NCBI GenBank assembly: GCA_018302605.1
Contig: JAGVZN010000010.1
Span: 65,013-129,012, forward strand
Direction: 5' to 3'
Source of the DNA: Candidatus Woesearchaeota archaeon
Lineage (GTDB): Archaea; Nanobdellota; Nanobdellia; Woesearchaeales; GW2011-AR9
DNA: 64,000 nucleotides
The position numbers were made by a program, and so were the translations under genes. The notes beneath the pieces were generated by a model. It was not told the origin of the DNA and did no database searches. It worked only from the letters and a program-made list of their open reading frames with translations. This document shows positions 44,699 to 59,031 of this stretch, piece by piece; the stretch's first letter is position 1, and every line of letters starts with the position of its first letter.

Positions 44699-45590
44699 AT
44701 TTCTTGCTTGGGTACCATACCCCGCAGTTCTACTGCGATGTTGATTCCAAGCAAGATTAAAAAATACCCCGGAGCTCTGCTCCGATTGGGATTTTTTATT
44801 TTTTTTCTTTATTTTTTGGATGATGTAGTCTTATGTAGACTTTATGCATAAACTCCCCCTCCCGCGCTCTACTATCTCTTGGTAATCCATTTACATTAAA
44901 TAGACCAGAAAGCCTCTTCTTTTAAGATGAGGATGAATGGGCTTTCTAGCCTATTTATGTCACAAAGTGCGGGGATTAGAAAGCGTCTCATGGTTAGAAA
45001 ATAATAAATACCATGATATATTTCTACTCTCCGTGCCGGACACTTCGGTTGTCCTGGAAAGGATGCGTCCATCGCAGCCTCTGTCAGATGTTCACCATTA
45101 ATCGTGTGGCTGGACTATAACTCACGCGACGAAACCTACATTTGGTACGCTTCTTTGATGGCGCGAAGCAGATCACCGTTAAAACAAACCAGTAGGTTAA
45201 GTTTCGATATTGGGCGTTGTTTGCGGCACTCCTTCACCGAGTCCAGAGCACACTTTAACGTATGACTCCAACAACGCGATCAGGCAAAAAAAGAAAGAAA
45301 CAAGGACCTAAATTGCGGCAGAAAAGACCGTCACGAGGTTCTCGTTCTTCCTCTTCTTCTTCTGCGCGGAAAAGCCCCCGTCAGGCTAGTGGTAAAGCCA
45401 AAGATTCTAAAGTGGTGAAATTAGTCCGTCTTTCTAAAAAGAATCGACGGAATGGTTATAATACTTCATTGAAAAAATCCAGCAGATCGCCGTTGTCAAA
45501 ACTGGCTAACCGTCTGCATTCCAGGAAACGACGATAACCGTCATCATTCTCCGGTGGAGGTAACAACAGGTTAGATAGTTGAGATTCTTT

Positions 45591-47044: not shown

Positions 47045-48073
47045 ATGGGCAGTATCAATCCTCGAATGTATCTCATCGATGCACTATACTCTAAGAATGT
47101 CAAGAAGGTGAATACGCGTGACGGCTACGGGAAAGGATTGGTCAAAGCCGGAGAAAAAAATCCAGACGTCGTCGTCATCTGCGCTGACCTGACTGAGTCC
47201 ACGCGCAGCTTATGGTTTCAGGAAAAATTCCCGGATCGTTTTGTCGAAGTGGGTGTAGCGGAACAAAACATGGCTTCACTTGCCGCAGGCATGGCCGCTA
47301 CCGGGAAAGTTGTGTTTATCTCATCCTATGCTGCATTTTCTCCTGGCAGAAATAATGAGCAGATCCGCACGACGATTAGTTATAATAGCTGGAAGAGCAA
47401 ACCGGGGAAAGAGATCAATGTCAAGATCGGCGGCGCGCATGCCGGGATCAGCGTCGGTCCGGATGGCGCAACCCATCAGCAATTGGAAGATGTTGCCTTG
47501 ATGCGGATGCAGCCGGGAATGACGGTTCTCGTGCCGTGTGATGATGTAGAATGTGAAAAAGCGACGGTTGCCGCCGCTGAATATCCCGGGCCAGTGTATA
47601 TCCGCTTTGGCCGGACTTCCTATCCTTCGTATACAACTATAAAGACGCCATTCCAGATCGGCCGGATCGAAGAGTTCCGCAGCGGAAAAGATTGTACGAT
47701 TATTGCCAATGGTCCGCTATTGTATGAAGCATTAATTGCGGCAAAGAAATTAGAGAAAGAGATTGATTGTCAAGTATTAAACTGCCATACGGTAAAACCC
47801 CTGGATTGCGGCACGCTGCTTAAAGCTGTGCAGAAGACGGGGTGTGTGGTGACCGCTGAAGAACATCAATGGCTCGGCGGTTTAGGAGGAGCAATCGCTG
47901 AATTTATCAGTGAGGTCTATCCTGTTCCAATCAAAAGGATCGGGGTCCAGGATCGCTTTGGTGAAAGCGGCAATCCTGATGAGCTGTTTAAAGAGTTCCA
48001 TCTGACCGCTGATGATATTGTTAAAGCCGTGCGTGAAGCAGTGAGGATGAAACAATGGCAAAAAAGAAAGTGA
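47045..48073 (+). CDS. tkt: transketolase, C-terminal subunit (split form)
   Basis: Pyrimidine-binding and C-terminal domains (FVEVGVAEQNMASLAAGMA...). Immediately follows the N-terminal subunit. Confidence 0.85.
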   Translation: MGSINPRMYLIDALYSKNVKKVNTRDGYGKGLVKAGEKNPDVVVICADLTESTRSLWFQEKFPDRFVEVGVAEQNMASLAAGMAATGKVVFISSYAAFSPGRNNEQIRTTISYNSWKSKPGKEINVKIGGAHAGISVGPDGATHQQLEDVALMRMQPGMTVLVPCDDVECEKATVAAAEYPGPVYIRFGRTSYPSYTTIKTPFQIGRIEEFRSGKDCTIIANGPLLYEALIAAKKLEKEIDCQVLNCHTVKPLDCGTLLKAVQKTGCVVTAEEHQWLGGLGGAIAEFISEVYPVPIKRIGVQDRFGESGNPDELFKEFHLTADDIVKAVREAVRMKQWQKRK

Positions 48074-48264
48074 AAAAGACCGTGAAGAAGAAAACCGTAG
48101 TCCGGACAGCAGCGGGCAAGAAGCCGGCAAAAAAAGAATATTTCTGTCCTCATTGCGGCTACGAGGCATTCAAGCTGGCCCGCCTATCCAGCTGCCCGTT
48201 GTGTGTGATCTGCTCGGGCTGTGGGAAAGAAGTGCGGAAATGCCGATGTAAGGAGGGGGAATAA
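48055..48264 (+). CDS. small protein with lysine-rich MAKKK N-terminus and C-terminal zinc ribbon
   Basis: MAKKKVKKTVKKK... then CPHCG...CPLCVICSGCGKEVRKCRC. Its start overlaps the last 19 nt of the transketolase C-subunit gene. Confidence 0.5.
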   Translation: MAKKKVKKTVKKKTVVRTAAGKKPAKKEYFCPHCGYEAFKLARLSSCPLCVICSGCGKEVRKCRCKEGE

Positions 48265-48283
48265 GTTTGTAGCAATGAATCCA

Positions 48284-48619
48284 TTAAGATAATTTGGTTT
48301 GTTTTCCGTCTTGGATTCCTTTTTCTAACGCTTTTAATCTGGTGCAGATAATCATTCTAAATCTTGAGATGCCTTCGATTGACACGCTATTGTTCATTTT
48401 AAGCTTCTCTGCCAGAGCAAAACGCTCTTGATGTGATTTTAAGACCGTGAATTTATACTCATGATCATCTTTTCTTATTTTGAGGGTAATGTTACCTTTT
48501 GGGGTTGTTCCTTTTTCGATTATTTTCTCTTTTAATCTTAATCTACGCTTAAACTCTTTTATTTTCCTCTCTTTGTTGGCAAGTACAGTCAAGCGGTCGA
48601 TGAGGGTGGTGTCAATCAT
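48284..48619 (-). CDS. hypothetical protein
   Basis: Start taken at the ATG at 48617-48619 (MIDTTLIDRL...), which overlaps the stop of the upstream minus-strand gene by 8 nt. The track's longer ORF begins at 48685. Confidence 0.4.
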   Translation of the reverse strand: MIDTTLIDRLTVLANKERKIKEFKRRLRLKEKIIEKGTTPKGNITLKIRKDDHEYKFTVLKSHQERFALAEKLKMNNSVSIEGISRFRMIICTRLKALEKGIQDGKQTKLS

Positions 48620-49097
48620 GTTTAAGTTCCTCATAAATCTCCAGCAACGCATCTTTATGCCCCCAGCCATCACAACTGTTATCAATAATAGAATCTAATC
48701 TTCCTTTAAATTTTGGTATTAAATCAGAATTATTATTTAACATCTTAATTATCTGCTCAAACATGGTTTCCATACTGGAGTAAAACGCTTCATACATATC
48801 GCCGTATTCATGATCAATCTTTTCTCCATTTTCAAGATAAAAAATCATTAATTCCAAAAGGTGCTCTTGATTTTTAGATATTTTCTTAAAGTCAACGAGT
48901 GCTTTTCTTGCTTCACGAAGATTTGTCTTTTCCTGCCACAAAGCCTCTTTTATTTTTTGTTTATAATAGGTTATAGCCTCATCGGCTCCACTTTGCAGTT
49001 TTAACTTTAAGAAATCAGCATTTTCTTTTCGTAATGAAGATAATTCTAAAAGAAGCGCGTATAATTCTTCTTTTCCTAATTTTTTGAGTTCTTTCAT
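48612..49097 (-). CDS. hypothetical protein (161 aa)
   Basis: Its ATG overlaps the stop of zinc-ribbon gene 1 (ATGA at 49094-49097). Confidence 0.5.
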   Translation of the reverse strand: MKELKKLGKEELYALLLELSSLRKENADFLKLKLQSGADEAITYYKQKIKEALWQEKTNLREARKALVDFKKISKNQEHLLELMIFYLENGEKIDHEYGDMYEAFYSSMETMFEQIIKMLNNNSDLIPKFKGRLDSIIDNSCDGWGHKDALLEIYEELKHD

Positions 49098-49213
49098 TGC
49101 AGGATCTTGTCAAAACATTTATCGCACATACCGACGTGCCATTCTTTATTATGTGCAGAGATTTTGGCACTGCATTGTTTGCAGTTGTAATTCATCTCTT
49201 CGGTGTTCTTCAT
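49094..49213 (-). CDS. small zinc-ribbon protein (39 aa), copy 1
   Basis: MKNTEEMNYNCKQCSAKISAHNKEWHVGMCDKCFDKILQ (CxxC...CxxC). Stop overlaps the next gene's start. Lies inside a ~180-nt direct repeat. Confidence 0.55.
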   Translation of the reverse strand: MKNTEEMNYNCKQCSAKISAHNKEWHVGMCDKCFDKILQ

Positions 49214-49257
49214 GTGAATGGTACGTTCTTTTACCGGTGAGGGTGGTTTGGGGCATA

Positions 49258-50127
49258 TTATTTTGGCTTATCCTCCAATTCTTCCGTTTCTTTCTCTAAT
49301 CTTTTCTTCTTTGTTAAATCTAGGTGATTTTCTGGAGAAATAACTTTAATTCCGAATGTTTTTTCGGCATCAGCTCTCGCTCTTCCAGCAACTTTTCCGC
49401 CTTCTTTGGCCGCATCCAATCCCTCAGCAAAGCCTTGAACTTCTTTCTTGCGCGTAGCTTCGGTGGTAAGCCTTTCACCGAGCATTGAAAAAATTAACTC
49501 TAAGTCATTCATGTGATCTCTGAGATTTTGATTTTTGAATTTTGGATCAAGCCTTTTTATCTCTTTGTGAATCTTTATAGGTACTCCAAAAGTAGCCTGA
49601 GAAATCTCGTTGGTTAAAATGGCGTATTCTCTCAGCTCTCCAATACCCCTTTTTTTCCATTCCTCAGTCAATTCCTGTCTGATGGCAATGCCTCTTAACC
49701 TCTTATCAATCCAATCTTTAGGATAGCCTTTAAGCTCATAATATTCTTTAGCTCTATCTTGTGCTAATTCAGGATTTTCAATCTCTTGAATGCGTTCATA
49801 ACCAACTTGTGCCAGCCAGCGCTTGAATGGCTCGACTTTCTTAGAGGGAATCGATTGGATTAATCTTAACATGGTCTCCGTATTTGCACTGTCAGTCTCC
49901 CTTAATTTACCATCTTCTGCTGGCATTTTCAACAGTACGATTTTATCGTACGGTTCAAATCCTTCTTCTAGAAGCTTAGCTTTTAGGTCAGACCAATATC
50001 TTTTTGGAAGGGAACTGTCTGTCAAGACTGCTACAATATCTATGACGGAGAAGTGCCATTCCTCTTTGTGCCATAACCGGCGAATGTTTTTGCCTTCAAA
50101 GATAACTAAAGCGTTTTTTTGATTCAT
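49258..50127 (-). CDS. Bro-N domain protein (phage antirepressor-like), paralog 2
   Basis: N-terminal Bro-N-like IRRLWHKEEWHFSVIDIVAVLTDS...LRLIQSIPSKKVEPFKRWLAQVG. ~50% identical to the ORF at 51596-52453. Confidence 0.65.
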   Translation of the reverse strand: MNQKNALVIFEGKNIRRLWHKEEWHFSVIDIVAVLTDSSLPKRYWSDLKAKLLEEGFEPYDKIVLLKMPAEDGKLRETDSANTETMLRLIQSIPSKKVEPFKRWLAQVGYERIQEIENPELAQDRAKEYYELKGYPKDWIDKRLRGIAIRQELTEEWKKRGIGELREYAILTNEISQATFGVPIKIHKEIKRLDPKFKNQNLRDHMNDLELIFSMLGERLTTEATRKKEVQGFAEGLDAAKEGGKVAGRARADAEKTFGIKVISPENHLDLTKKKRLEKETEELEDKPK

Positions 50128-50249
50128 TATTTTTCCACCATCTTGTCAAAACATTTATCGCACAGATTGGCGTGCCATTCTTTATTATGTGCAGAGATTT
50201 TGGCACTGCATTGTTTGCAGTTGTAATTCATCTCTTCGGTGTTCTTCAT
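50127..50249 (-). CDS. small zinc-ribbon protein (40 aa), copy 2
   Basis: MKNTEEMNYNCKQCSAKISAHNKEWHANLCDKCFDKMVEK. Its TAA overlaps the Bro-N paralog-2 ATG (TAATG). Confidence 0.55.
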   Translation of the reverse strand: MKNTEEMNYNCKQCSAKISAHNKEWHANLCDKCFDKMVEK

Positions 50250-50344
50250 GTGAATGGTACGTTCTTTTATCTTCTGGCAATTCTTTTCCGGTGAGGGTGG
50301 TTTGGGGCATATTATTTTGGCTTATCCTCCAATTCTTTCGTTTG

Positions 50345-51370
50345 TCATTTTCTACCGTTTTTTTTCCCAAATAATTTTTTGCTGAACTTGTCAAAATCAG
50401 AATTAAATAATCTGTCTTGAATAATCCTATATTTTTCAAACTCAGATTCAGCAAATTCTTTGGCAATCGCAGCAGTTACTTTGCCATGATTTTCTAAAAC
50501 TTCCCGACTATTAAATTTCAGAAACGCATTGAGTTTTTCTGCCCAATCTTTCATAGTTATGGGGATGTTTCTTTCTGCTTGATCTTCTGCAAAATCAAGA
50601 TACATGGTAACAATCCGATTTAAAGCTTTAATCTCATCTTGCTTTAGATAATTTTTAGCTATTGAAACATCGCTTTTGATGATTTTGCCTTGAGGGGCAT
50701 TCTTCCAAGTAGTTAACCCCATATACTCTTTTTTTGAATCTGCCCGTTTCAATACTAATTCCGGCGCTGTATGCTGATGAATGGCATAGTGCATCTTATT
50801 CTGGACTGTTGCAAAAAACTCTGTAGTGGTTCTTGAATTTTTATCATAATCCATGCTGGTAGCATAAATATCTGTTATTTTTTGATAAAAATTTCGTTCA
50901 CTGGCTCTAATTTCCCTTATTTCTTCCAGCAGATAATCAAAGTATTGCTTATTTAAAAACGAGCCATTTTTCAACCTTTCTCTATCTAAAACGTATCCTT
51001 TTATAGCAAATTCTTTTAAAACAGTAGTTGCCCAGATTCTGAATTGGGTTGCCCTTTGCGAATTTACCCGGTATCCTATTGAGATAATAACGTCTAAGTT
51101 ATAGAATTTAGTACTATATTCTTTCCCATCTGAAGCAGTATGTCGGAAATCCCGACAAACTGAATTTTCATCTAATTCCCCAGTATCAAATATCTCTCTG
51201 AGGTGTTCAGTAATAGTGCTTCTTCCTTTATCAAAAAGCTTAGCAATCATCTGCTGGGAAAGCCAAACGGTTTCATCTGCGTACTTTACTTCGATAGACT
51301 CTTCTCCTGACTGTGCGGTAAATATCAGGAATTCGGCAGTGCTGTTTCGGATGGCGAGGTCTTTAGTCAT
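50345..51370 (-). CDS. RhuM-family protein
   Basis: MTKDLAIRNSTAEFLIF...VWLSQQMIAKLF...YNLDVIISIGYRVNSQRATQFRIWATTVLKEF, which I recall as matching the RhuM/virulence-protein family. Confidence 0.65.
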   Translation of the reverse strand: MTKDLAIRNSTAEFLIFTAQSGEESIEVKYADETVWLSQQMIAKLFDKGRSTITEHLREIFDTGELDENSVCRDFRHTASDGKEYSTKFYNLDVIISIGYRVNSQRATQFRIWATTVLKEFAIKGYVLDRERLKNGSFLNKQYFDYLLEEIREIRASERNFYQKITDIYATSMDYDKNSRTTTEFFATVQNKMHYAIHQHTAPELVLKRADSKKEYMGLTTWKNAPQGKIIKSDVSIAKNYLKQDEIKALNRIVTMYLDFAEDQAERNIPITMKDWAEKLNAFLKFNSREVLENHGKVTAAIAKEFAESEFEKYRIIQDRLFNSDFDKFSKKLFGKKNGRK

Positions 51371-51595
51371 TTTTCTTCTCCGGTGAGGGTGTTGGGGGCA
51401 TTTTATTCTCTTTTGACATCTCTTTCCACCTCTTTTTTAACTATTAGGAATTTCCGAATAGTTGATTGCTCATCTAATTCTTGATGTCTGCTTCTATTTT
51501 TGCTTATCTGATAAAGTCATGAAAGTGCGGGCAAGTCTTTTCTGTATGAATACCACAACAGCTTAATACATTGCTGACCAGACATGAATAATGAT

Positions 51596-52453
51596 TTAGT
51601 TATTTGAGTCATCTTTATCGTGTTTTATCCTTTTTTTATCAGTAAAATGTATTTCTTTGGCATCCTTTGAAGTGACAACTTTTTCTCCAAGCCTTTTTTC
51701 AATTCTGTCTTTTGCAACTCTGGCAGTTTTTCCGCCTTCTCTAGCGATTTCTTTGCTTTTTCCAAGTGTTGCAGGGTTTTCTTTCTCAGAGATTTCTTTT
51801 GTGGTCGCTTCTGCAAGCATGTTCAGGATAAGTTCAATATTGGTCATATTATCCCTTAAGTTTTCTTTTTTCAGACCTTTAAATTGCTTATACTCTTTGA
51901 CTGTCTTGCCAGCCCATGCTTTGGTAATCTCAGTGGTAAGAATAGCAAAATCTTCCTGTTTTGAAATGCCAACCCTGTTCCATTCATCAGTTAATTGTTT
52001 TCTGATTTCAATCGTTTTGAGTCTCTGATTTATCCATTCCTCAGAATATCCTTTTTGCAGATAAGTTCTCATAGCTCTATCAATAGATAGTTCTGGATCT
52101 TCAGTTTCATCAATTCTTTCTCTTCCAACCCTTGCCAGCCACATTTTGAAAGGTTCTGCCTTTTTTGAGGGGATTGATTGGATTAATCTTAAAAGCTGTC
52201 CTGTGTCGGCAACATCAGTTAGGTAAAATTTGCCATCCGACGACTGCATCTTCAGTCGGTTACAATTTGTAACCAACTCATCTCCTTCTTTTCTGAGCCT
52301 GAATTTGAGGACTTTCCAATAATTATTAGGACTTGGACTATCTGTCAACACTTCAATAACATCAATAATAGAAAAATACCATTTCTCTTCATCTTCTCTC
52401 CACTGCGTCCGTACTTTCTTATCTTCAAAGAGCTTGATGGATTTCTCTGTCAT
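51596..52453 (-). CDS. Bro-N domain protein (phage antirepressor-like), paralog 1
   Basis: VRTQWREDEEKWYFSIIDVIEVLTDS...LRLIQSIPSKKAEPFKMWLARVG. Confidence 0.65.
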   Translation of the reverse strand: MTEKSIKLFEDKKVRTQWREDEEKWYFSIIDVIEVLTDSPSPNNYWKVLKFRLRKEGDELVTNCNRLKMQSSDGKFYLTDVADTGQLLRLIQSIPSKKAEPFKMWLARVGRERIDETEDPELSIDRAMRTYLQKGYSEEWINQRLKTIEIRKQLTDEWNRVGISKQEDFAILTTEITKAWAGKTVKEYKQFKGLKKENLRDNMTNIELILNMLAEATTKEISEKENPATLGKSKEIAREGGKTARVAKDRIEKRLGEKVVTSKDAKEIHFTDKKRIKHDKDDSNN

Positions 52454-52517
52454 GATATATTAAAACTATGGGGAGTATATAAGCCTTAGGCGTACTTGAC
52501 CAGTGGGCGAGTGGCTT

Positions 52518-52799
52518 TTATCTAATCCCAAACTTCTTACAAATGAGACACTTATTATTTCTCCAAGAAAATGTTCTCTTCTGCCACTCTTCATCTGAAA
52601 GGTTGCAGATAGTCTTATCAGATCGAATTAGAGTAAGGAATTTGTTGTGCGTCATCTCAACTCCTCGCATTTTCTTGGCCAGTTCCTGTAGTTTAGGAAT
52701 ATGGTCTTCTTGACGTTGTTCATCAAGATAGCATTTTCGAGTGCAATAATTACCATAGTACCAATTAACAAGTTGTTGGATAGGAACGGCTTTTTTCAT
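52518..52799 (-). CDS. small Cys-rich (zinc-finger-like) protein
   Basis: 93 aa with a CTRKC...CLICKKFG cysteine pattern. Overlaps the upstream gene by 4 nt. Confidence 0.4.
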   Translation of the reverse strand: MKKAVPIQQLVNWYYGNYCTRKCYLDEQRQEDHIPKLQELAKKMRGVEMTHNKFLTLIRSDKTICNLSDEEWQKRTFSWRNNKCLICKKFGIR

Positions 52800-53431
52800 T
52801 CCAACCTCCTTTGCATCTTTCTTTTGGAGGTTTCTGCAAGTCTTCCCTCTTCAGCTGCTCTTTTCCGTTGCAACTTTTGAATATCTTCTTCGGCGGGGAG
52901 ATTTTCTGGAACAATTTTATTTTTTAGTAAAACTTTTCGCATTTCGCTATTATTCTTTACGTGTTCTCCAGTTATTCGAATCTCTCCCTGAAGATTATTC
53001 TGCTTTACCTTAAAGTTAGTAATTTCTGTTGCGAGATTTTTGGCAGCGATGGTCACTGTTGGCAAGAAATCAGCTAATGGCCTGCTCTTTGGGATTTCTA
53101 ACTTCTTTTTCATTTGCGAAGTGTTCAAACCGCCGAATAACGCTTCATCCCCTTTGCTTCTGATTCGGGCAAAGCCGTTTTCGTCAACTCCTCGTTCATA
53201 AATTAGCTGAGATAACTCCGTTTCGGCTGCGATGAGCTTATTTCGAGCTTCAAGCCTTTCTCCTAAAGCTATCCTCTGCTCGATTATCTCCTGTTTTCTG
53301 GTTTGAACAGCAAAATAACTCTGGGCAAAGGCAATTTGTTCCTTTCTGGGATCGCCATTTTGAGCAATAAGATAGCAGGCATAGCGGGTAAGCATGAAAT
53401 CGTCTATTTCTTTTGTTGCTCCTTTCGGCAT
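52796..53431 (-). CDS. DinD/antirepressor-like hypothetical protein
   Basis: 211 aa. AQSYFAVQTRKQEI and the coiled-coil C-terminus resemble DNA-damage-inducible protein D-like and phage antirepressor C-terminal regions. Assigned from memory only. Confidence 0.4.
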   Translation of the reverse strand: MPKGATKEIDDFMLTRYACYLIAQNGDPRKEQIAFAQSYFAVQTRKQEIIEQRIALGERLEARNKLIAAETELSQLIYERGVDENGFARIRSKGDEALFGGLNTSQMKKKLEIPKSRPLADFLPTVTIAAKNLATEITNFKVKQNNLQGEIRITGEHVKNNSEMRKVLLKNKIVPENLPAEEDIQKLQRKRAAEEGRLAETSKRKMQRRLE

Positions 53432-53654
53432 AGCTATCGTTTTGTTGACGCCAACAAAATGATCTTCAATTCTCTGTTGAGATTTGTAACAGGAAATCTT
53501 AGCTTTTTCAATGACTTTTAGAAAATTCCTCCATTCATCATAGTCTAAAAGTAATGGTTTCTTTTTTCATTTAGATTCAAAGAAGAGGGTGGTATATAAA
53601 TATCATTTGTGGACTTGACCAGTGGGGAGTGGGTTCTCGATGCGTTGTTGAGAA

Positions 53655-54008
53655 GTGAAGATGATCCGGCTGGATTTCAAGAATCTGGGCGTGAACGGTC
53701 TCTACGGCTACAGTCAGGGTGGAAAAGTGGTTGTCTCTGCCAAAGACAGTGTGAACACGCAGGTAAACACGCTGGTTCATGAGATTACGCATGAACTACT
53801 CCATCACCCCAGTGATCTTACAGAACAGCAGAAAGAGATTGAGGCTGAGGGAACGGCGTACGTGGTGTGTAAGCATTTTGGTCTTTCGACCAAGAGCTTC
53901 ACCTATCTGGCCATGTACAAAGCTGACTCCAAAGAGATCATGGCTCATTTGGAAGCGATTGCGAGGGCGAGTAAGGAGGTGATTGAATTTTTGATTTTTA
54001 TTTTTTAG
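53655..54008 (+). CDS. ImmA/IrrE-family (DUF955) zinc metallopeptidase-like protein
   Basis: HEITHELLHH HExxH motif in a ~117-aa protein. GTG start. TATA-like GGTATATAAAT sits 60 nt upstream. Confidence 0.5.
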   Translation: MKMIRLDFKNLGVNGLYGYSQGGKVVVSAKDSVNTQVNTLVHEITHELLHHPSDLTEQQKEIEAEGTAYVVCKHFGLSTKSFTYLAMYKADSKEIMAHLEAIARASKEVIEFLIFIF

Positions 54009-54045
54009 ATGTAAGAGTTTTTCTGTTTGCATTATACATAGCTTT

Positions 54046-54114
54046 TTGGAAGTTAAATTTTTCGATTTGGAAGTTAAATATTTGTAACTTGGAAGTTAAG
54101 ACCAAACTTTATAT
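54046..54114 (+). promoter_or_regulatory. three phased direct repeats TTGGAAGTTAA(A/G) followed by a TTTATATA box
   Basis: Repeats at 54046-54058, 54067-54079 and 54089-54100 (21-22 bp period). TTTATATA at 54107-54114 lies ~24 nt upstream of the ATG at 54138. Confidence 0.45.
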
Positions 54115-54137
54115 AACGCCTAGTTTCTCCTCTAGTC

Positions 54138-54278
54138 ATGTCAAAAAAGATGGTGGCTGATAGTCCTAATAATTTTACCTTTACTGCATTAAGGGGCATC
54201 CAAGCAGGCAGAGAATATTATGCCGTAATGTGTCCTCTACGACTTATCCCACGAATGTTCTTGTTTAATGTTTCATAA
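54138..54278 (+). pseudogene. N-terminal fragment of a DGQHR/DndB-like domain protein (46 codons)
   Basis: MSKKMVADSPNNFTFTALRGIQAGREYYAVMCPLRLIPRMF matches, from memory, the conserved N-terminal RG-Q-G-R-YY...MCPL region of DndB/DGQHR proteins. The reading frame stops after 46 codons. Confidence 0.35.
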
Positions 54279-54369
54279 AATCCTTCAAATTCATGTTCTT
54301 GAAAGCCATTCATTAATTTTTGTTTGTTCATTTTGTATTTCACGGTGTTTTCTTTTAAATGTTTTAAAT

Positions 54370-55830
54370 CTATCTTATTCTATTGATTTTTCCTAACTCT
54401 CCCACAATCCAAACCATCGCTTCTGTATCCCTTTCACAATAGCGAAGCAAGTCTTCCCTGATCTTCTTTCTAGCTGAAGCAGTCAGTTCACCAAATGTCA
54501 TATCTAAGTAGGCAATAGAAGCACAATCTCCATCTTTAATATCCAAACCTTCATATCCTTTCCCTACCAGAGCAGGTAGAACTTTCTTGATGGAAGCAGA
54601 GCCTTTCTGCTTGGGGTTGTAATAAAGGAAATCCTTAAAGGGTTTATACAAATCAACAATCCTTCCTAAGAGAACATCAACCCAGGCTGTATATTCTGGA
54701 AAATCTTTTACTAACTCTTTCAATACTGACCCCTCAAAGCCTTCAAAGTACACTAATACGCTTCCAGAAGCAGGTAAATATTCTTTCAAAGCCGCCAGAA
54801 ACTTAGGTCGAGGATCATCCTTGCCATCGTGCAGGTACTCAAAATGTTTCGTTTTACCATTCTCAACTACATGCAGAGAAAACTGAAACGGCATCCGTTG
54901 ATACGGTCTTGTTCCCTGAAACTCAGGAACTGCAAACGAACACGTTTCAAAATCAAGATGGCAGGCTGGTTCTCGAATTCCATCTAAAAATTTCTTAATT
55001 CTAGCCTTCTCGAGATGAATCTCACCACTTTTCTCACATTTTAATTGAATAACTTGTTGCTCATTAGACAGAACATCATCAGGAACATCTTTCAAAGCAT
55101 GAATTCCTTGCTCAAATAGTTTCATACTTTTTCTGCTGTTATACAAGTGAAAGACATGATTCTCAGGTAGAAAACCCCAACACTCTTCCTTCACTTGGCA
55201 CTTTTTTGGGATAGTGCAGTAATTCTTCTCTGCACTATTTGGGAAAGTAGGGGAATTAACAATACCCCACAGAAATTCAATATTCTTTGGTACTTCATAC
55301 TGCAATTCTTCTACATCTTCGGTCAAATCCTCTTGGACAAATAGTTTATGAACATCAATTTCTCCATCTCGAACGTATTGATTATTCAACAGCAGAAGAA
55401 AGCATTTTCTGATCTTCAAACCAGCTTTTCTATAGACGTATAATTGAAATGATAAATCCCAGTAATGGTCCTTCTTAATTTTGCTACTGCTTTTGACTTC
55501 AATAATATCCCATTCATCTTTACCCACAGGAACGAGAATATCCGCTCTGCCATAGAGGTTATCTACTTGCAGAGCGGCTTCAAAGAGAATTTTTCGTTTT
55601 TTGAGCAGTTCTTTTGATTTCTGAATATTTTCAAGATAATCTGCTTCGGGAATATCGATTCCCTGAGGAAAGAGTTTCTTTGCCCATTGTCCGACGATCC
55701 TTCCTTGTTCAAATCTTCTCAGAACGCCGGGTGAATGGGGAGGAATATTTTCTTCATCATGATACTTCATCCATAGGTGTCCCGGGCATTCCATTCCTGT
55801 TGTGTAATCGGATTTGGAGAGTGGTTTCAT
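54370..55830 (-). CDS. DUF2779-family protein: N-terminal PD-(D/E)xK (Cas4/RecB-like) nuclease domain plus C-terminal DEDD-like exonuclease domain
   Basis: LSKSDYTTGMECPGHLWMKYH, ADILVPVGKDEWDIIEVKSS (D...EVK) and HLDFETCSFAVPEF...RPYQRMPFQFSLH. Confidence 0.65.
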   Translation of the reverse strand: MKPLSKSDYTTGMECPGHLWMKYHDEENIPPHSPGVLRRFEQGRIVGQWAKKLFPQGIDIPEADYLENIQKSKELLKKRKILFEAALQVDNLYGRADILVPVGKDEWDIIEVKSSSKIKKDHYWDLSFQLYVYRKAGLKIRKCFLLLLNNQYVRDGEIDVHKLFVQEDLTEDVEELQYEVPKNIEFLWGIVNSPTFPNSAEKNYCTIPKKCQVKEECWGFLPENHVFHLYNSRKSMKLFEQGIHALKDVPDDVLSNEQQVIQLKCEKSGEIHLEKARIKKFLDGIREPACHLDFETCSFAVPEFQGTRPYQRMPFQFSLHVVENGKTKHFEYLHDGKDDPRPKFLAALKEYLPASGSVLVYFEGFEGSVLKELVKDFPEYTAWVDVLLGRIVDLYKPFKDFLYYNPKQKGSASIKKVLPALVGKGYEGLDIKDGDCASIAYLDMTFGELTASARKKIREDLLRYCERDTEAMVWIVGELGKINRIR

Positions 55831-56326
55831 GTACGTATTAATTCCTCTGTTTTGTTGATGAAATCTAACACTTTGTCTTCGTAGTCTTCTACCATTTCCC
55901 TGCTAAACTTAATATTTGTGGCATAACTGGCTTCATGCCTGTCCTCTTTAAGGTTGGTGTAGAGTTCTGCATCCTCTTTGCTTATAGACAGTTCATGTAA
56001 TAGTTTTGCTTCATCTTTCGTGATAGAATATTCCTGGATAAGGATTAGAATTGTGGCATAGTGATTTTTGGAGGAATAATTTCTATTTGTAATGAGTGCC
56101 AAAGCACAATGGTATATGCGTAATATAACGTTACAATAAGCCAATCATTGAATTTGTGGTGTTCTTTGTTTAGTTTGTAGAATTCCAGATTATGCCTTGC
56201 TTTTTTAAGATGAGAGTTCACCAATTCTTTGTTTTCTTGAATCTTTTTGATATGCTTTTTGGTAATGAAGAAGTCTAGCTCTTGTCCTAAATATTTTTGG
56301 TCTGCAAATAATTTATCAATATTCAT
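55827..56326 (-). pseudogene. HEPN-domain toxin gene split by a frameshift
   Basis: The first frame (56326-56045) carries the N-terminal helix. The second frame (56144-55827) carries ILRIYHCALALITNRNYSSKNHYAT...KEDRHEASYA, a HEPN R-x-H...Y-like C-terminus. The two overlap over 56045-56144. Confidence 0.5.
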
Positions 56327-56906
56327 TTAGAATAACCTCATAGAAATTTTGTTCTTTGTGAATGGGGAAGCCTGTTTTTCTCGCTTGCATAATCAGATCA
56401 TCTTTGTTCTTGATAAATTGATCCGTAGTTGTTTGAAATAGGGAGAATGGATATTTTGAGGTTATTTCGGCTTCTTTTTTATTTTCTGTTAAGTCTATTT
56501 TTTTATTAGCTACTATCAATAGGTCTATATCACTTCTGTTTTGTTCTTCCTTTCTGGAAGTTGAGCCAAAGATGATGATAGTATACGTTTCTGTAGGGAT
56601 ATTTTTGAGAAAGTTTCTGAGGGGAACTTTTACTCCCAGGTTTAAGCGGTTGAACTTTTGCATTGCTATTTCTGAAAATTTAAGAGCAAACAGTTTCTTA
56701 TCTTTTACTTTATAGAAAGTATTTGATTTAGTTTTTTCTTGGTTCAGGGTATTATTTCTTACCAGTTTTGTTAAGGTATTGGTTAAAGAGCTGTCGGAGA
56801 GCTGGGAGAGTTCTTTTATCTCGTTGAAGTATAAACTATTCTTTTTGCTTTCAAAATACGCGTGATATACTTTATCTTCTGGTTTCAGTTGTTGGGGGAT
56901 TTTCAT
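56316..56906 (-). CDS. minimal nucleotidyltransferase (MNT) domain protein, cognate partner of the HEPN gene
   Basis: IIIFGSTSRKEEQNRSDIDLLIV (GS...SDxDLL NTase motif). Overlaps the HEPN start by 11 nt. Confidence 0.6.
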   Translation of the reverse strand: MKIPQQLKPEDKVYHAYFESKKNSLYFNEIKELSQLSDSSLTNTLTKLVRNNTLNQEKTKSNTFYKVKDKKLFALKFSEIAMQKFNRLNLGVKVPLRNFLKNIPTETYTIIIFGSTSRKEEQNRSDIDLLIVANKKIDLTENKKEAEITSKYPFSLFQTTTDQFIKNKDDLIMQARKTGFPIHKEQNFYEVILNEY

Positions 56907-57004
56907 TTTAGACTGATACGGGGGGATTATTTATAAACACTTCTGTTTTTGGAGTGATTACTCCTGTTTTTGTGGTTTACTTGTTCAAATCGTTGGAGAA
57001 CAAT

Positions 57005-57107
57005 GGAACGGCGAGGCGGAATATTTTCTTTATCATGATACTTCATCCATAAGTGTCCTGGACATCCCATGCCGGTGGTGTAATCTGATTTGGAGAGTGG
57101 TTTCATG
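57005..57107 (-). pseudogene. duplicated 5' fragment of the DUF2779 gene
   Basis: 57016-57107 is ~88% identical to 55743-55830. It encodes MKPLSKSDYTTGMGCPGHLWMKYHDKENIPP...VLQRFEQ and then diverges and terminates. Confidence 0.6.
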
Positions 57108-57109
57108 GT

Positions 57110-57532
57110 TTAGTCCTCATGATGATAGAGCGTTACAATATCTTTAGTTTTTAAAATAATGACTTTATCTTGCTTTGCAAAATGCTTATCGTCAGACCAG
57201 ATAATAGAGTGTTCTTGACTTAATGCTGCGGCAATAAATGGGACGTCTTCAGGATCAATGTGTCCCATGATTCTTTTGGCTTCATTCCAATAAGCAGTCA
57301 ATTCTTCAGTAGGAATAAGCCTGATGAAGCGGAAGAGAGTATTGAGGATGATCAAAAATTCTGATTCGGAGATCCCGGACTTTGTAAGGATCAATTCTTT
57401 ATACTTTCTAATCTTATGGAAAGAGATCTCTGGAAAGCAGAAATCTTGTCCGGACTTGACAATTATTTCTCTCGTTGTAGAGTCTCTTATCAGTGCAGAA
57501 AGAAGAATATTGACATCAGTGATGATAATCAT
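57110..57532 (-). CDS. vapC: PIN-domain ribonuclease (VapC-like toxin)
   Basis: MIIITDVNILLSAL (Asp at position 6) with later acidic residues (WSDDKHF). Confidence 0.55.
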   Translation of the reverse strand: MIIITDVNILLSALIRDSTTREIIVKSGQDFCFPEISFHKIRKYKELILTKSGISESEFLIILNTLFRFIRLIPTEELTAYWNEAKRIMGHIDPEDVPFIAAALSQEHSIIWSDDKHFAKQDKVIILKTKDIVTLYHHED

Positions 57533-57541
57533 CGTGAAGCT

Positions 57542-57766
57542 TCAATCCCGATTTAGATCTTCAAATGTCTCTGCTTTTATTTTTCTGGAGATTGTGGAAA
57601 TATCTCTCTGAGTTAATTTGCTCTTCCTAGCGATTTTATCCATCATTTCCATCATTTCCATCTTCTGCGAGATCGATTTTCGGACTACTTCACTCCATCT
57701 AATTTCGGAGTGCTTTTTCATTCGTTCCTGCAGGTCGTCAGGCAAGGCTAAAGTTATATTTCCCAT
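57542..57766 (-). CDS. putative VapB-like antitoxin
   Basis: 74-aa ORF immediately upstream of the PIN gene. The N-terminal ITLALPDDLQERMKK resembles ribbon-helix-helix antitoxins. Confidence 0.4.
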   Translation of the reverse strand: MGNITLALPDDLQERMKKHSEIRWSEVVRKSISQKMEMMEMMDKIARKSKLTQRDISTISRKIKAETFEDLNRD

Positions 57767-57769
57767 AAT

Positions 57770-57988
57770 GTGAGAAGATGTGATATCACATATTTAAAGG
57801 TTCTGGTTTTAATGGCTCTCGAGCGGAAATTGAGCACCGGCTATCGGACGATCAAAGCGAATTGTGAAATATTAGAGCGCTTTGGTCAAGTCCACATTAA
57901 AGAACAGATCCATCCGGCAAATGGTCGCTCATCCCATCTTGTCTCGATTACTTCGCAAGGTTTCGATACAATTAAGAAAAAGAAATAG
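57770..57988 (+). CDS. hypothetical small protein (possible wHTH)
   Basis: 72-aa ORF divergent from the VapBC-like pair. Confidence 0.25.
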   Translation: MRRCDITYLKVLVLMALERKLSTGYRTIKANCEILERFGQVHIKEQIHPANGRSSHLVSITSQGFDTIKKKK

Positions 57989-58051
57989 GCTCCTGAACAC
58001 TAGAAACCAATATAAAGAAGCAATTCTCCAAAGACTAAGAGGTGATTTGCC

Positions 58052-58435
58052 ATGACAACTAAAATCATTAAAGAATTACAAGATATCAAACGGAAAGCCG
58101 CAATTATTAATCAGAAGATCGGAAGCGCAAAATTATCCTATCCGCAAGTTTGTCAATGCGGTGAAGAACTGGATCTTGTCTATGATGAAATCTTCTCTTT
58201 CGAAAGTGCGCTCCTCAAGAATGACCCCTTTGTAGAAATTGGACGCTATGGTCAAGAATCAGCGTATATCTTCAAAACATTGCGCACAAGCCATTCTCCA
58301 CTTCCAAAGAAATTTATTGTTTCTGAACTGAAGAAGTTTGAAATCCATCCCCGAAGAATCGAATACTGCATGGAACTTCTTCGTAAGACCGGCGAGATTT
58401 ATGAACCGAAGAAAGGGTTTGTTCAGAGAATATGA
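58052..58435 (+). CDS. hypothetical protein
   Basis: 127-aa ORF. Confidence 0.4.
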   Translation: MTTKIIKELQDIKRKAAIINQKIGSAKLSYPQVCQCGEELDLVYDEIFSFESALLKNDPFVEIGRYGQESAYIFKTLRTSHSPLPKKFIVSELKKFEIHPRRIEYCMELLRKTGEIYEPKKGFVQRI

Positions 58436-58774
58436 TTATTTCTTTTTTTTCAATTCTAACCGACGCTTGACAAATGCTTCTAACTCTTTTAACTCTCGGG
58501 GATGATATCTCTTTGTCTTCAGATACATTTCTAGAATATCTGCTCGATGGTCAATACGTGGCTGATCATACATTTGTATTGCCGACAACTTGCTACATTT
58601 CTGATGAAGTATTTTTATCTTTGCAAGAATAGCCTCATCTGCGATTACTTTCTCTGATTCAAACTTCAGTCTTTCATATTCTTCTTTAACATCTTCCTGA
58701 ATTTCTTCTCTCAATTCTTGTTCTCGTTGTTTCTGGATATTTTGTTTGGCTTGTTTGTATAATTTGATGTCCAT
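58436..58774 (-). CDS. hypothetical coiled-coil protein
   Basis: 112 aa, E/K/R-rich heptad-like sequence. Confidence 0.35.
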   Translation of the reverse strand: MDIKLYKQAKQNIQKQREQELREEIQEDVKEEYERLKFESEKVIADEAILAKIKILHQKCSKLSAIQMYDQPRIDHRADILEMYLKTKRYHPRELKELEAFVKRRLELKKKK

Positions 58775-58890
58775 AATTCTCTCAAAAGATTCACATTATA
58801 TTAATATTCTTGATAAGAATATTCTGACTTGAATAATACATCATTTCCAAATTCTTAAAATTCAGCCAAGAGTGAATTTTTGCCCAAAAA

Positions 58891-59031
58891 CTATCTTCCT
58901 TTCAAATTCTTAAAATAAATAATCTGCCGCTCCCTCTTTAACGCTTCGGTCTTCGTCCGAAACGTACCCAGTACTTTCTTTCCATCTTTGGTATACAACA
59001 CCCATTTGTACCCTTCTTTTTTAATGACCAT
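58891..59031 (-). CDS. small protein (46 aa), translationally coupled to the upstream oxidoreductase gene
   Basis: MVIKKEGYKWVLYTKDGKKVLGTFRTKTEALKRERQIIYFKNLKGR. Its ATG overlaps the stop of the 59031-60422 gene (TAATG). DUF2188-like pattern. Confidence 0.3.
   Translation of the reverse strand: MVIKKEGYKWVLYTKDGKKVLGTFRTKTEALKRERQIIYFKNLKGR

What the first reader, a model, noticed from the sequence alone, without database searches (positions are those of the whole stretch)
48284..53431. Minus-strand accessory cassette with duplicated zinc-ribbon/Bro-N modules, a RhuM-family gene and a DinD-like gene; candidate mobile or defence-related system in an archaeal background
Reading the minus strand from high to low coordinates: a DinD-like 211-aa gene (53431-52796), a Cys-rich 93-aa gene, Bro-N paralog 1 (52453-51596), a RhuM-family gene (51370-50345), zinc ribbon 2 (50249-50127, TAA overlapping the next ATG as TAATG), Bro-N paralog 2 (50127-49258), zinc ribbon 1 (49213-49094, TGA overlapping the next ATG as ATGA), a 161-aa gene and a 133-aa gene. 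The ~40-aa CxxC...CxxC genes are missed by the ORF track, but their stop/start overlaps argue they are translated. Bro-N and RhuM domains are characteristic of bacterial prophages and eukaryotic DNA viruses and are unusual in an otherwise archaeal genome. The tandem module duplication, with ~50% protein identity between the Bro-N paralogs, suggests an evolving cassette rather than housekeeping genes. Within the window the island has no integrase and no clear att boundaries.
Basis: partly seen in the sequence, partly recalled or inferred. Interest (0 to 1): 0.7.

Follow-up and report, generated by a model that had tools for sequence, protein, structure and literature searches.

The report
Defence-gene island in a DPANN archaeon
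This is a horizontally acquired, low-GC island in a Woesearchaeota genome carrying already-catalogued candidate antiviral genes (RhuM and three Bro-N/DinD proteins); the supposed 40-aa zinc-ribbon genes and the short DinD gene are truncated by what look like assembly errors, so the finding is real but mostly ordinary.

Summary
All ORFs exist where stated, and HMMs confirm Bro-N (two genes), RhuM and DinD. Three readings were wrong.

1. The 39/40-aa zinc-ribbon ORFs are 3' remnants of a conserved ~79-aa gene.
2. The 211-aa DinD-like ORF is the tail of a 284-aa Bro-N+DinD protein, a third Bro-N paralog. Both truncations come from short segments (56, 74 and 80 nt) that the window lacks but every independent near-identical contig keeps. 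Two more missing segments lie in non-coding DNA, so an assembly or curation artefact is most likely.
3. There is no duplicated ZnR/Bro-N module. ZnR also precedes DUF6155, RhuM, NTase and many other genes elsewhere.

The cassette is part of a 10.8-kb island (48265-59030, GC 0.37 against 0.47-0.48 in the flanks). It sits between a small zinc-ribbon gene next to transketolase and an oxidoreductase gene; that gap is under 1 kb in eight related genomes.

PADLOC assigns RhuM to PDC-S05 (a homolog blocked T7 and T5 in E. coli), the Bro-N/DinD genes to PDC-S13, and the NTase to PDC-M05A. The source MAG is already annotated this way in NCBI.

Verdict: a new member of a known kind. The only moderately novel element is the Woesearchaeota/Nanoarchaeota-associated ZnR leader gene at cassette junctions.

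The parts
48265..59030 (.). Whole accessory island between the conserved znr69 gene (48055-48264, +) and the pyridine-nucleotide-disulphide oxidoreductase gene (59031-60422, -)
   Evidence: GC is 0.370 against 0.472 (left flank) and 0.480 (right flank). In eight related Woesearchaeota/Nanoarchaeota MAGs the same gap is 337-925 nt. No tRNA and no flanking direct repeats.
48284..48619 (-).
   Evidence: Called as 111 aa in L007 and L179-L182. No Pfam family above threshold. Follows DUF6155 in other loci (L016).
48612..49097 (-). 161-aa DUF6155-like gene, the commonest gene directly downstream of ZnR
   Evidence: Pfam DUF6155 E 1.7e-5, just below the gathering score. In 11 of 61 ZnR loci it is the downstream gene, usually with a 4-nt ATGA overlap. 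NCBI accession MBS3169191.1, annotated as a hypothetical protein.
49094..49256 (-).
   Evidence: Start codon at 49256. The window lacks 74 nt at about 49233 relative to L007, L008, L182 and L183, which encode the 78-aa protein.
49258..50127 (-). Bro-N/DinD-like paralog 2 (289 aa), PADLOC PDC-S13
   Evidence: Pfam Bro-N E 1.7e-7. PDLC04920 E 2e-112 over the full length. NCBIfam DinD weakly matches the C-terminal half. NCBI accession MBS3169192.1, 'Bro-N domain-containing protein'.
50127..50310 (-).
   Evidence: Start codon at 50310. The window lacks 56 nt at 50269 relative to L002, L003, L005 and L008.
50345..51370 (-). RhuM-family gene (341 aa), PADLOC PDC-S05
   Evidence: Pfam PF13310 E 5e-112. 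PDLC04851 E 5e-156 over the full length. NCBI accession MBS3169193.1. N-terminal residues 69-117 align to the Bro-N profile (hhalign E 7e-5).
51371..51401 (-). Frameshifted remnant of a third ZnR 5' end directly upstream of the RhuM start codon
   Evidence: Repeat family D4. The sequence reads '..APNTLTGEEK*' against the family N-terminus MPQxTLxGE. Also present in L001 and L002, which are identical across this stretch.
51596..52453 (-). Bro-N/DinD-like paralog 1 (285 aa), PADLOC PDC-S13
   Evidence: Pfam Bro-N E 2.9e-9. PDLC04920 E 1e-130. phrog_15286 E 1e-116.
52518..52799 (-). Cys-rich 93-aa gene of unknown function; its start overlaps the DinD stop by 4 nt
   Evidence: ORF. No hit in Pfam, NCBIfam, PADLOC or PHROGs. 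Called identically in L001, L002 and L006. No relatives found in fetched loci.
52796..53570 (-). DinD-type Bro-N protein gene, disrupted in this window (intact form 284 aa); the 211-aa ORF is its 3' part
   Evidence: NCBIfam DinD 246 bits covering profile 75-284 of 288. PDLC04919 E 2e-81. 80 nt are missing at 53551/53552 relative to L001 and L002. L006 has a 100-N scaffold gap at this spot and retains 77 of the 80 missing nt. The intact protein has Bro-N, E 2e-11.
53655..54008 (+). Small ImmA/IrrE-type M78 metallopeptidase gene (117 aa, HEITH motif) with no adjacent HTH partner
   Evidence: Pfam Peptidase_M78 E 4.6e-5, 23.7 bits against a cut-off of 22. phrog_87 metalloprotease.
54370..55830 (-). 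Cas4-like PD-(D/E)XK nuclease with DUF2779 (486 aa)
   Evidence: Pfam DUF2779 E 4e-40 and Cas_Cas4 E 1e-8. PADLOC Cas4 models down to E 1e-10.
55827..56906 (-). wHTH-nucleotidyltransferase (56316-56906, PDC-M05A-like) followed by two overlapping small ORFs (56045-56326 and 55827-56144), possibly its HEPN-type partner
   Evidence: Pfam Polbeta and NTP_transf_2. PADLOC PDC-M05A E 3e-16. Weak CARF_HEPN hit, E 0.006, for the 93-aa ORF.
56927..57107 (-). 59-aa duplicated N-terminal fragment of the DUF2779/Cas4 gene, flanking the NTase module
   Evidence: Direct repeat D2, 55739-55831 and 57015-57107, 89% identity. Translation.
57110..57766 (-). RHH antitoxin (57542-57766) plus PIN_2 toxin (57110-57532), a VapBC-type pair
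   Evidence: Pfam PIN_2 E 3e-26. RHH_12 on the identical gene in L001.

Best explanation
**What it is**
The flagged cassette is the znr69-proximal half of a 10.8-kb, horizontally acquired, low-GC accessory island. The genome is a groundwater Candidatus Woesearchaeota (DPANN) MAG.

**Content**
- The island is a collection of independent, mostly single-gene candidate antiviral or toxin modules, not one multi-gene machine.
- In its intact form it has three proteins with an N-terminal Bro-N DNA-binding domain and a DinD-type C-terminal region (PADLOC PDC-S13).
- It has one RhuM protein (PDC-S05), whose N-terminal domain also looks Bro-N or winged-helix-like.
- It also has an NTase module (PDC-M05A-like), a PIN/RHH toxin-antitoxin pair and a Cas4-like nuclease.

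**Likely mechanism (inferred, not shown)**
- The Bro-N-type domains bind invading DNA or replication intermediates.
- The C-terminal domains then block the invader or the infected cell. By analogy with E. coli DinD, the DinD-type region would interfere with RecA/RadA-family recombinase filaments. RhuM would act as a toxin or effector.

**The ZnR gene**
The effector genes are interleaved with copies of a ~79-aa zinc-ribbon gene associated with Woesearchaeota/Nanoarchaeota. This gene is usually translationally coupled to whatever follows it, and it marks the cassette junctions.

**The truncations**
The truncated ZnR and DinD reading frames in this window are most likely errors of this particular assembly.
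For: **Family assignments:**

**Island status**
- GC 0.37 against 0.47-0.48.
- The conserved order is transketolase, znr69, oxidoreductase. The gap before the oxidoreductase is 337-925 nt in eight relatives and 10.8 kb here.
- L017 has RhuM and Bro-N genes at the same junction. L016 and L012 have subsets elsewhere.

**Horizontal transfer:** RhuM is 55-62% identical to copies on bacterial phages and plasmids. It is 73-75% identical to Dehalobacter and Desulfuromonadaceae proteins.

**Defence role**
- The PDC families were defined by being embedded in RM, BREX or DISARM loci (10.1101/2024.01.29.577857).
- One PDC-S05 RhuM protein reduced plating efficiency about 1000-fold for T7 and T5 in E. coli (10.1101/2024.09.26.614923).
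- RhuM was proposed as a toxin domain (PMC3710099).
- DinD modulates RecA filaments (Uranga 2011, as cited in PMC4457935).

**RhuM N-terminal domain:** hhalign to Bro-N gives E 7e-5. The AF2 model is confident for residues ~30-115, and the best folds are DdrC and wHTH proteins.

**ZnR**
- 55 clusters of ~78-84 aa; every member that carries a source name is Woesearchaeota or Nanoarchaeota.
- 41 of 61 downstream genes start within 5 nt of, or overlap, the ZnR stop.

**Artefact**
- Five short segments (36, 56, 74, 79 and 80 nt) are missing only from the window. They fall in coding and non-coding DNA.
- One coincides with a scaffold gap in L006, and two lie in a 285-nt repeat.
- The DinD junction is absent from the metagenome collection.
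Against: - No gene of this island has been tested in an archaeon.
- PDC-S13 is untested anywhere that I could find.
- There is no RM, BREX or DISARM gene in the island, so the guilt-by-embedding context is absent here.
- The RhuM C-terminal domain was poorly modelled (pLDDT under 50), so its activity remains unknown.
- The Bro-N-like assignment for RhuM rests on a 49-column hhalign match with only 63% probability.
- Bro-N and RhuM genes also occur on phages and satellites, so they may serve a mobile element rather than the host.
- In some relatives the same junction holds a pst transporter operon or a synteny break, not defence genes.
- The deletions could be real in the strain that was sampled. 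No reads were available.
Confidence: 0.7

Rival explanations
1. The island is the decayed remnant of an integrated virus, plasmid or satellite. Under this reading, its Bro-N proteins (anti-repressor-like), ImmA-type peptidase, Cas4-like nuclease and toxin-antitoxin pairs served the element's own regulation and maintenance, not host defence.
For: - Bro-N/DinD genes match PHROG families (phrog_15286 E 1e-116, phrog_8036 E 1e-59).
- RhuM occurs on Wolbachia phage WO, streptococcal satellite phages and plasmids.
- A lone M78 ImmA-like gene faces the cassette.
- Low GC.
- A duplicated gene fragment flanks the NTase module, which suggests insertion history.
Against: - There is no integrase, replication, capsid or packaging gene and no att repeats or tRNA.
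- No relatives of Bro-N paralog 2 or ZnR were found in 2.9 million viral contigs.
- The genes are scattered singly in many Woesearchaeota contexts rather than as one element.
Confidence: 0.15
2. ZnR plus its downstream gene forms a two-gene regulated module, antitoxin/toxin-like or regulator/effector. The small zinc-ribbon protein would hold RhuM, Bro-N/DinD or DUF6155 effectors in check until infection. Its identical 5' half would also serve as a homologous-recombination handle that shuffles cargo cassettes.
For: - 41 of 61 ZnR-downstream pairs overlap or lie within 5 nt, and 19 have the ATGA overlap.
- Cargo is diverse and often defence-type: DUF6155 11, Bro-N 8, RhuM 4, NTase 3, plus HsdR, an SNF2/ZorD-like helicase, Fic and PRiA4_ORF3.
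- L098 has ZnR-RhuM-ZnR-DUF6155.
- About 20 fusion proteins carry the ZnR module at either end.
- Codons 1-65 of the two copies are identical in DNA, and all six differences are nonsynonymous in codons 66-78.
- A ZnR 5' remnant sits upstream of RhuM.
- Two contigs join RhuM to ZnR78 and DUF6155 without Bro-N paralog 2.
Against: - Downstream genes also include housekeeping types: eRF1-like, GatB, EF-Tu, thymidylate kinase.
- Upstream neighbours are equally variable.
- ZnR has no Pfam or PADLOC family and no significant fold match.
- Fusion partners are uninformative (SEC-C motif, HEAT repeats).
- The exact repeat exceeds the assemblers' k-mer size, so the cassette-loss contigs may be path artefacts.
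Confidence: 0.2
3. The three frame-disrupting deletions are genuine mutations in the sampled strain. That would mean a lineage that has inactivated costly or toxic genes (two ZnR copies and one DinD).
For: All three coding deletions are out of frame and hit island genes. NCBI's annotation of the source MAG gives a shortened 238-aa DinD and no ZnR proteins.
Against: - Two further missing segments lie in non-coding DNA outside the cassette, at about 60690 and at 44989.
- Flanking sequence is otherwise 99.9-100% identical.
- L006 has an N-gap exactly at the DinD site and keeps the missing bases.
- L182, from the same sample as L006, has intact ZnR1.
- More than ten contigs from MEGAHIT-style k141/k127 records, JGI and ANAN16-1 records are intact.
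- The DinD junction is absent from the metagenome collection.
Confidence: 0.2
4. The cassette is a DNA-damage or stress-response cluster (DinD-like and DdrC-like DNA-binding proteins) rather than an antiviral one.
For: E. coli dinD is SOS-induced and modulates RecA. The best fold match of the RhuM model is the Deinococcus DNA-damage response protein DdrC (E 6e-4).
Against: - The DdrC match has a TM-score of only 0.24-0.33 on a low-confidence model.
- The genes are accessory, low-GC and variably present, unlike core repair genes.
- These families were catalogued because they are embedded in restriction and BREX loci.
- A RhuM protein blocked phages.
Confidence: 0.08

Closest known systems
PADLOC PDC-S05 (RhuM-domain single-gene phage-defence candidate; Pfam PF13310 Virulence_RhuM)
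   Same: Full-length match (E 5e-156, residues 1-334 to profile 1-335 of 342) and Pfam E 5e-112. Same size and architecture as bacterial members, 55-75% identical to them.
   Different: - The host is a DPANN archaeon.
- The gene is not embedded in an RM, BREX or DISARM locus.
- It is flanked by ZnR gene copies. In other Woesearchaeota ZnR lies directly upstream of RhuM.
- Activity is untested here.
E. coli DinD (NCBIfam NF008573) / PADLOC PDC-S13
   Same: The DinD-type gene passes the NCBIfam equivalog cut-off and matches PDLC04919. The intact protein has the Bro-N plus DinD-C architecture. The two other paralogs match PDLC04920 over their full length.
   Different: - Archaea have no LexA/SOS system, and the recombinase would be RadA, not RecA.
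- Three paralogs sit in one island.
- The copy in this window is disrupted.
- I found no experimental antiviral evidence for PDC-S13.
Defence islands and variable hotspots of bacterial and archaeal genomes
   Same: Low-GC, variably present cluster of defence-candidate, toxin-antitoxin and nuclease genes at a conserved chromosomal junction.
   Different: The island has no integrase or other recognisable mobility gene. In other relatives the same junction carries a pst operon or a synteny break rather than alternative defence genes.
Conserved small regulators that precede diverse defence systems (for example WYL-domain BrxR/CapW; recalled from my own knowledge, not tested here)
   Same: ZnR is a small conserved gene found immediately upstream of many unrelated, often defence-type, cargo genes.
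   Different: - ZnR has no HTH or WYL domain and no demonstrated DNA binding.
- It is usually translationally coupled rather than divergently transcribed.
- It also precedes housekeeping genes.
- The family is tiny: 85 clusters at 50% identity.
Integron-type gene cassette arrays
   Same: A repeated junction sequence lies between unrelated cargo genes, and there are contigs that may lack one cassette.
   Different: - No integrase and no attC-like inverted repeats.
- The repeat is itself a protein-coding gene under amino-acid conservation.
- Any exchange would be by ordinary homologous recombination.

Membership tests
RhuM family (Pfam PF13310) / PADLOC PDC-S05 | Pfam Virulence_RhuM domain above the gathering score | tested here: met
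   373.6 bits against a cut-off of 33.7, residues 70-319.
RhuM family (Pfam PF13310) / PADLOC PDC-S05 | Full-length match to a PDC-S05 HMM | tested here: met
   PDLC04851 E 4.8e-156, residues 1-334 to profile 1-335 of 342.
RhuM family (Pfam PF13310) / PADLOC PDC-S05 | Embedded within an RM type I, BREX or DISARM locus (the context by which PDC families were discovered) | tested here: not met
   No RM, BREX or DISARM component among the island ORFs. This is a discovery criterion, not a requirement for PADLOC single-gene calls.
RhuM family (Pfam PF13310) / PADLOC PDC-S05 | Confers protection against viruses | not testable with these tools
   The only evidence is for a cold-seep homolog in E. coli.
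DinD (NCBIfam NF008573 equivalog) / PADLOC PDC-S13 | HMM score above the curated cut-off | tested here: met
   246.2 bits against 242 for the truncated 211-aa ORF. PDLC04919 E 1.7e-81.
DinD (NCBIfam NF008573 equivalog) / PADLOC PDC-S13 | Complete architecture: N-terminal Bro-N domain plus DinD C-terminal region | tested here: not met
   In the window only profile positions 75-284 of 288 are covered. The 284-aa allele in L001 and L002 does meet it (Bro-N E 2e-11).
DinD (NCBIfam NF008573 equivalog) / PADLOC PDC-S13 | DNA-damage (LexA) induction and inhibition of RecA filaments | not testable with these tools
   Known for E. coli DinD only.
Bro-N domain proteins (Pfam PF02498) | Bro-N domain above the gathering score in both flagged paralogs | tested here: met
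   37.8 and 32.2 bits against a cut-off of 25.6. Both match PDLC04920 over the full length.
Integrated virus, plasmid or genomic island with site-specific integration | Integrase or recombinase gene, att direct repeats, tRNA target | tested here: not met
   No such Pfam hit among the island ORFs scanned. No flanking repeats. No tRNA in the window.
Integron-like cassette array (considered for the ZnR repeats) | IntI integrase and attC imperfect inverted repeats at cassette ends | tested here: not met
   No integrase. The only inverted repeat found in 47.5-60 kb is unrelated.
Type II toxin-antitoxin pair (considered for ZnR plus downstream gene) | A small upstream gene translationally coupled to a toxin, with a fixed partner family | tested here: inconclusive
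   Coupling is met in 41 of 61 pairs. Partners are very diverse and include housekeeping genes. Neutralisation cannot be tested here.

The most novel reading that the evidence does not exclude
The ~79-aa zinc-ribbon gene is the adaptor of a Woesearchaeota-specific cassette system. Its invariant 5' half would provide the homology for swapping, gaining and losing translationally coupled cargo genes (RhuM, Bro-N/DinD, DUF6155, NTase, Fic, HsdR and others). Its product would regulate or neutralise whichever effector follows it. That would make it an integrase-free, protein-coding counterpart of integron cassette junctions in the reduced genomes of DPANN archaea.
Probability: 0.15. Interest if true: 0.6.

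Novelty: new member of a known kind. Interest (0 to 1): 0.3.

Why it matters
- **What it adds.** It documents that an episymbiotic DPANN archaeon with a small genome keeps a compact island of the same candidate antiviral genes (RhuM, Bro-N/DinD, NTase modules) that bacteria embed in restriction loci. These genes were probably obtained by recent inter-domain transfer.
- **A practical warning.** The public MAG from which the window comes appears to contain several short spurious deletions. These create false pseudogenes and false mini-ORFs, so small-ORF discovery on such assemblies needs cross-checking against independent contigs.
- **What could become more.** The ZnR leader gene is the one element with further potential. 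If it regulates or mobilises the effectors, it would give a handle on how DPANN archaea organise defence.

Tried and rejected
- **Viral origin.** Scans of 2.9 million viral contigs with Bro-N paralog 2 and with the ZnR profile found no relatives.
- **ZnR fold.** The AF2 model (pLDDT 73) had no Foldseek PDB match at E <= 0.001.
  - I considered a DksA/TraR-like finger (5vsw_M E 1.6, YbiI 2kgo E 2.8). That match is not significant.
  - I considered a minimal HNH-like motif (H60, N61, H65 between the two CxxC pairs). The spacing is too short and there is no structural support. I dropped both ideas.
- **RhuM mechanism.** There are no PDB relatives by sequence or profile. The AF2 model is confident only for the N-terminal domain, so the C-terminal activity could not be inferred.
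- **Bro-N/DinD structures.** None found in the PDB by sequence or profile.
- **Promoter and terminator scan.** Bacterial consensus only, and counts were at or below shuffle expectation. Uninformative for an archaeon.
- **att sites and tRNA.** None found.
- **Cluster look-up artefact.** The 40-aa peptide grouped with alpha-amylases, which is a clustering artefact.
- **Dedicated defence hotspot.** Rejected: other relatives carry a pst operon or a synteny break at this junction.
- **ZnR fusion partners.** They gave only SEC-C and HEAT motifs.
- **Other low-GC patches** (5-7 kb and 18-19 kb). They hold a hypothetical gene, a HAD hydrolase, HisRS and an AAA kinase-like gene. Nothing there is island-like.

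Full report
**1. Observation check**

The TAATG and ATGA stop/start overlaps are real.
- Pfam confirms Bro-N in 51596-52453 and 49258-50127, and RhuM in 50345-51370 (E 5e-112).
- The 211-aa ORF has no Pfam domain, but it passes the NCBIfam DinD equivalog model (246 bits against a cut-off of 242). It aligns only to profile positions 75-284 of 288.
- The two Bro-N paralogs are 44.7% identical over 282 aa.

**2. The small ORFs and the short DinD gene are truncated, most likely by assembly error**

Exact-protein look-ups returned metagenome contigs that are 99.9-100% identical to the window. Aligning them shows that the window lacks five short segments:

| Position in window | Missing | Effect |
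|---|---|---|
| 53551/53552 | 80 nt | Inside the Bro-N domain of a 284-aa DinD protein; frameshift |
| 50269 | 56 nt | Disrupts ZnR copy 2 (intact form 79 aa) |
| ~49233 | 74 nt | Disrupts ZnR copy 1 (intact form 78 aa) |
| ~60690 | 36 nt | Intergenic |
| 44989 | 79 nt | Intergenic; removes half of a long hairpin |

- So the 40- and 39-aa 'zinc-ribbon genes' are the 3' halves of 79- and 78-aa genes, and the 211-aa 'DinD-like gene' is the tail of a third Bro-N protein. The intact form has Bro-N at E 2e-11.
- The only other contig that carries the exact 211-aa product (L006) has a 100-N scaffold gap at that spot and retains 77 of the 80 missing bases.
- The two ZnR deletions lie inside a 285-nt repeat.
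- More than ten contigs from MEGAHIT-style k141/k127 records, JGI and ANAN16-1 records are intact.
- The DinD junction sequence is absent from the metagenome collection.
- The missing segments hit coding and non-coding DNA alike, and the flanks are otherwise identical. I therefore judge an assembly or curation artefact about 75% likely. Real deletions in the sampled strain remain possible.
- The source is an NCBI Candidatus Woesearchaeota MAG (J4210_ locus tags, 166,852-bp contig). There the genes are already annotated as RhuM, Bro-N and DinD. DinD is called as a shortened 238-aa protein, and there is no protein at either ZnR site.

**3. Organism and island limits**

- The flanking transketolase is 80-82% identical to that of Woesearchaeota/Nanoarchaeota MAGs.
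- In these relatives the order transketolase-N, transketolase-C, znr69, oxidoreductase is conserved. The gap before the oxidoreductase gene is 337-925 nt in eight genomes and 10.8 kb in the window (48265-59030).
- Island GC is 0.370 against 0.472 and 0.480 in the flanks.
- L017 carries RhuM and a Bro-N gene at the same junction. L016 and L012 carry subsets elsewhere. L018 and L029 have a pst operon there, and L019 and L021 show a synteny break.
- There is no tRNA, integrase or flanking repeat.

**4. Gene content**

- PADLOC assigns RhuM to PDC-S05 (E 5e-156), both Bro-N paralogs to PDC-S13 (PDLC04920, E 1e-130 and 2e-112) and DinD to PDC-S13 (PDLC04919, E 2e-81).
- The rest of the island holds:
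  - a wHTH-NTase resembling PDC-M05A;
  - a PIN/RHH toxin-antitoxin pair;
  - a Cas4-like DUF2779 nuclease;
  - a duplicated fragment of that nuclease gene;
  - a lone ImmA-type peptidase.
- PDC families are candidates found by being embedded in RM, BREX or DISARM loci. One PDC-S05 protein reduced T7 and T5 plating about 1000-fold in E. coli.
- RhuM was earlier proposed to be a toxin domain. DinD-RhuM fusions occur in type I RM loci. E. coli DinD modulates RecA filaments.
- RhuM and Bro-N/DinD relatives number in the thousands. Named hits include many Woesearchaeota, Nanoarchaeota and Methanoperedens proteins, so they are not unusual in these archaea.
- Bacterial RhuM copies reach 73-75% identity, which points to recent inter-domain transfer.
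- A profile comparison aligns RhuM residues 69-117 with the second half of the Bro-N domain (E 7e-5, probability 63%).
- The only confident part of the RhuM AF2 model is an alpha/beta N-terminal domain. Its best structural matches are DdrC and winged-helix proteins.
- All four large proteins therefore probably share a DNA-binding N-terminal module.

**5. The ZnR gene**

- The intact protein defines a small family: 55 clusters at 90% identity and 85 at 50% identity among 1.84 billion representatives. Every member that carries a source name comes from Woesearchaeota or Nanoarchaeota.
- It is conserved over all ~79 residues and has no Pfam or PADLOC family and no significant fold match.
- In 61 loci the downstream gene was DUF6155 (11), Bro-N/DinD-like (8), RhuM (4), NTase (3) or one of about 27 unrelated singleton genes.
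  - These other genes include HsdR, an SNF2/ZorD-like helicase, Fic and PRiA4_ORF3.
  - They also include eRF1-like, GatB, EF-Tu and thymidylate kinase genes.
- Upstream neighbours are equally varied.
- 41 of 61 pairs overlap or lie within 5 nt.
- About 20 representatives are fusions with the ZnR module at either end, and the partners are uninformative.
- In the window's intact form the two copies are identical in DNA through codon 65. They differ by six nonsynonymous changes in codons 66-78.
- A frameshifted ZnR 5' remnant sits directly upstream of RhuM.
- Two contigs join RhuM to ZnR78 and DUF6155 without Bro-N paralog 2. The exact repeat is longer than the assemblers' k-mer size, so this is not conclusive.
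- The stretch 51401-48284 is therefore best read as three ZnR-led units, not as a duplicated ZnR/Bro-N module.

**6. Mechanism and rivals**

- **Best supported (0.7):** an acquired island of independent candidate antiviral or toxin genes. Bro-N-type domains would sense DNA, and DinD-type or RhuM C-terminal domains would act as effectors. Family membership and accessory status are shown. The antiviral function and mechanism are inferred.
- **Rivals:**
  - a decayed integrated element (0.15);
  - ZnR-cargo regulated modules with recombinational shuffling (0.2; compatible with the main reading);
  - real inactivating deletions (0.2);
  - a DNA-damage response cluster (0.08).

**7. Novelty**

- The gene families, their defence-candidate status and even the annotation of this MAG are already public.
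- What is new is modest: the island's delimitation in a DPANN genome, the correction of artefactual mini-ORFs, and the description of the ZnR leader family.
- I rate it a new member of a known kind, with interest 0.3.

Noticed in passing
window 44960-45010 (intact form: L179 4230-4390): The window lacks 79 nt at 44989 relative to L179, L180 and L007. The intact intergenic sequence forms a long imperfect hairpin: AAAGTGCGGGAAAGCGTCTC, an inner hairpin CCTCGCTCTTAAGAGCGAGG, then GAGACGCTTTCTAATCCCCGCACTTT. It has no tRNA or Rfam match and could be an unannotated structured RNA or a terminator.
   Followed up: partly
window ~60689-60697: The window lacks about 36 nt (TGGCCTGCCGAGCGTTGCGATTGGACAGAAAATGA) relative to L006. 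The site is in the intergenic region between the peptidase M1 gene and the oxidoreductase gene. This is another sign that the source assembly carries short spurious deletions.
   Followed up: partly
window 55739-55831 and 57015-57107: A 93-nt direct repeat (89% identity) duplicates the 5' end of the DUF2779/Cas4-like gene. The second copy is a 59-aa fragment (56927-57106). The two copies bracket the NTase plus small-ORF module, as if that module had inserted into, or recombined with, a second nuclease gene.
   Followed up: no
window 55827-56326: Two overlapping small ORFs (93 and 105 aa, in different frames) lie downstream of the PDC-M05A-like NTase. They may be one frameshifted HEPN-type partner gene. 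The same split is called in L001, so it is not specific to this window.
   Followed up: no
L107 5237-6292: In one metagenome locus the gene overlapping the ZnR stop by 4 nt encodes a 351-aa protein with all three eRF1 domains. This is an eRF1/Pelota-like paralog in an accessory context.
   Followed up: no
L004 and L185 (equivalent to window 50266 joined to 49233): Two contigs from different samples and assemblers join the RhuM 3' end to the ZnR78-DUF6155 unit without Bro-N paralog 2. They may reflect population-level loss of one cassette by recombination between ZnR copies, or an assembly path through the repeat.
   Followed up: partly
window 48055-48264: The 69-aa lysine-rich CxxC...CxxC protein (znr69) that overlaps the transketolase stop is conserved next to transketolase in nearly all Woesearchaeota/Nanoarchaeota relatives (59-71% identity). 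It marks the left edge of the island. Its function is unknown.
   Followed up: partly
window 5073-6404: A 443-aa ORF in another low-GC patch (GC 0.36-0.39) has no Pfam family. Its neighbours are a HAD hydrolase and histidyl-tRNA synthetase.
   Followed up: partly
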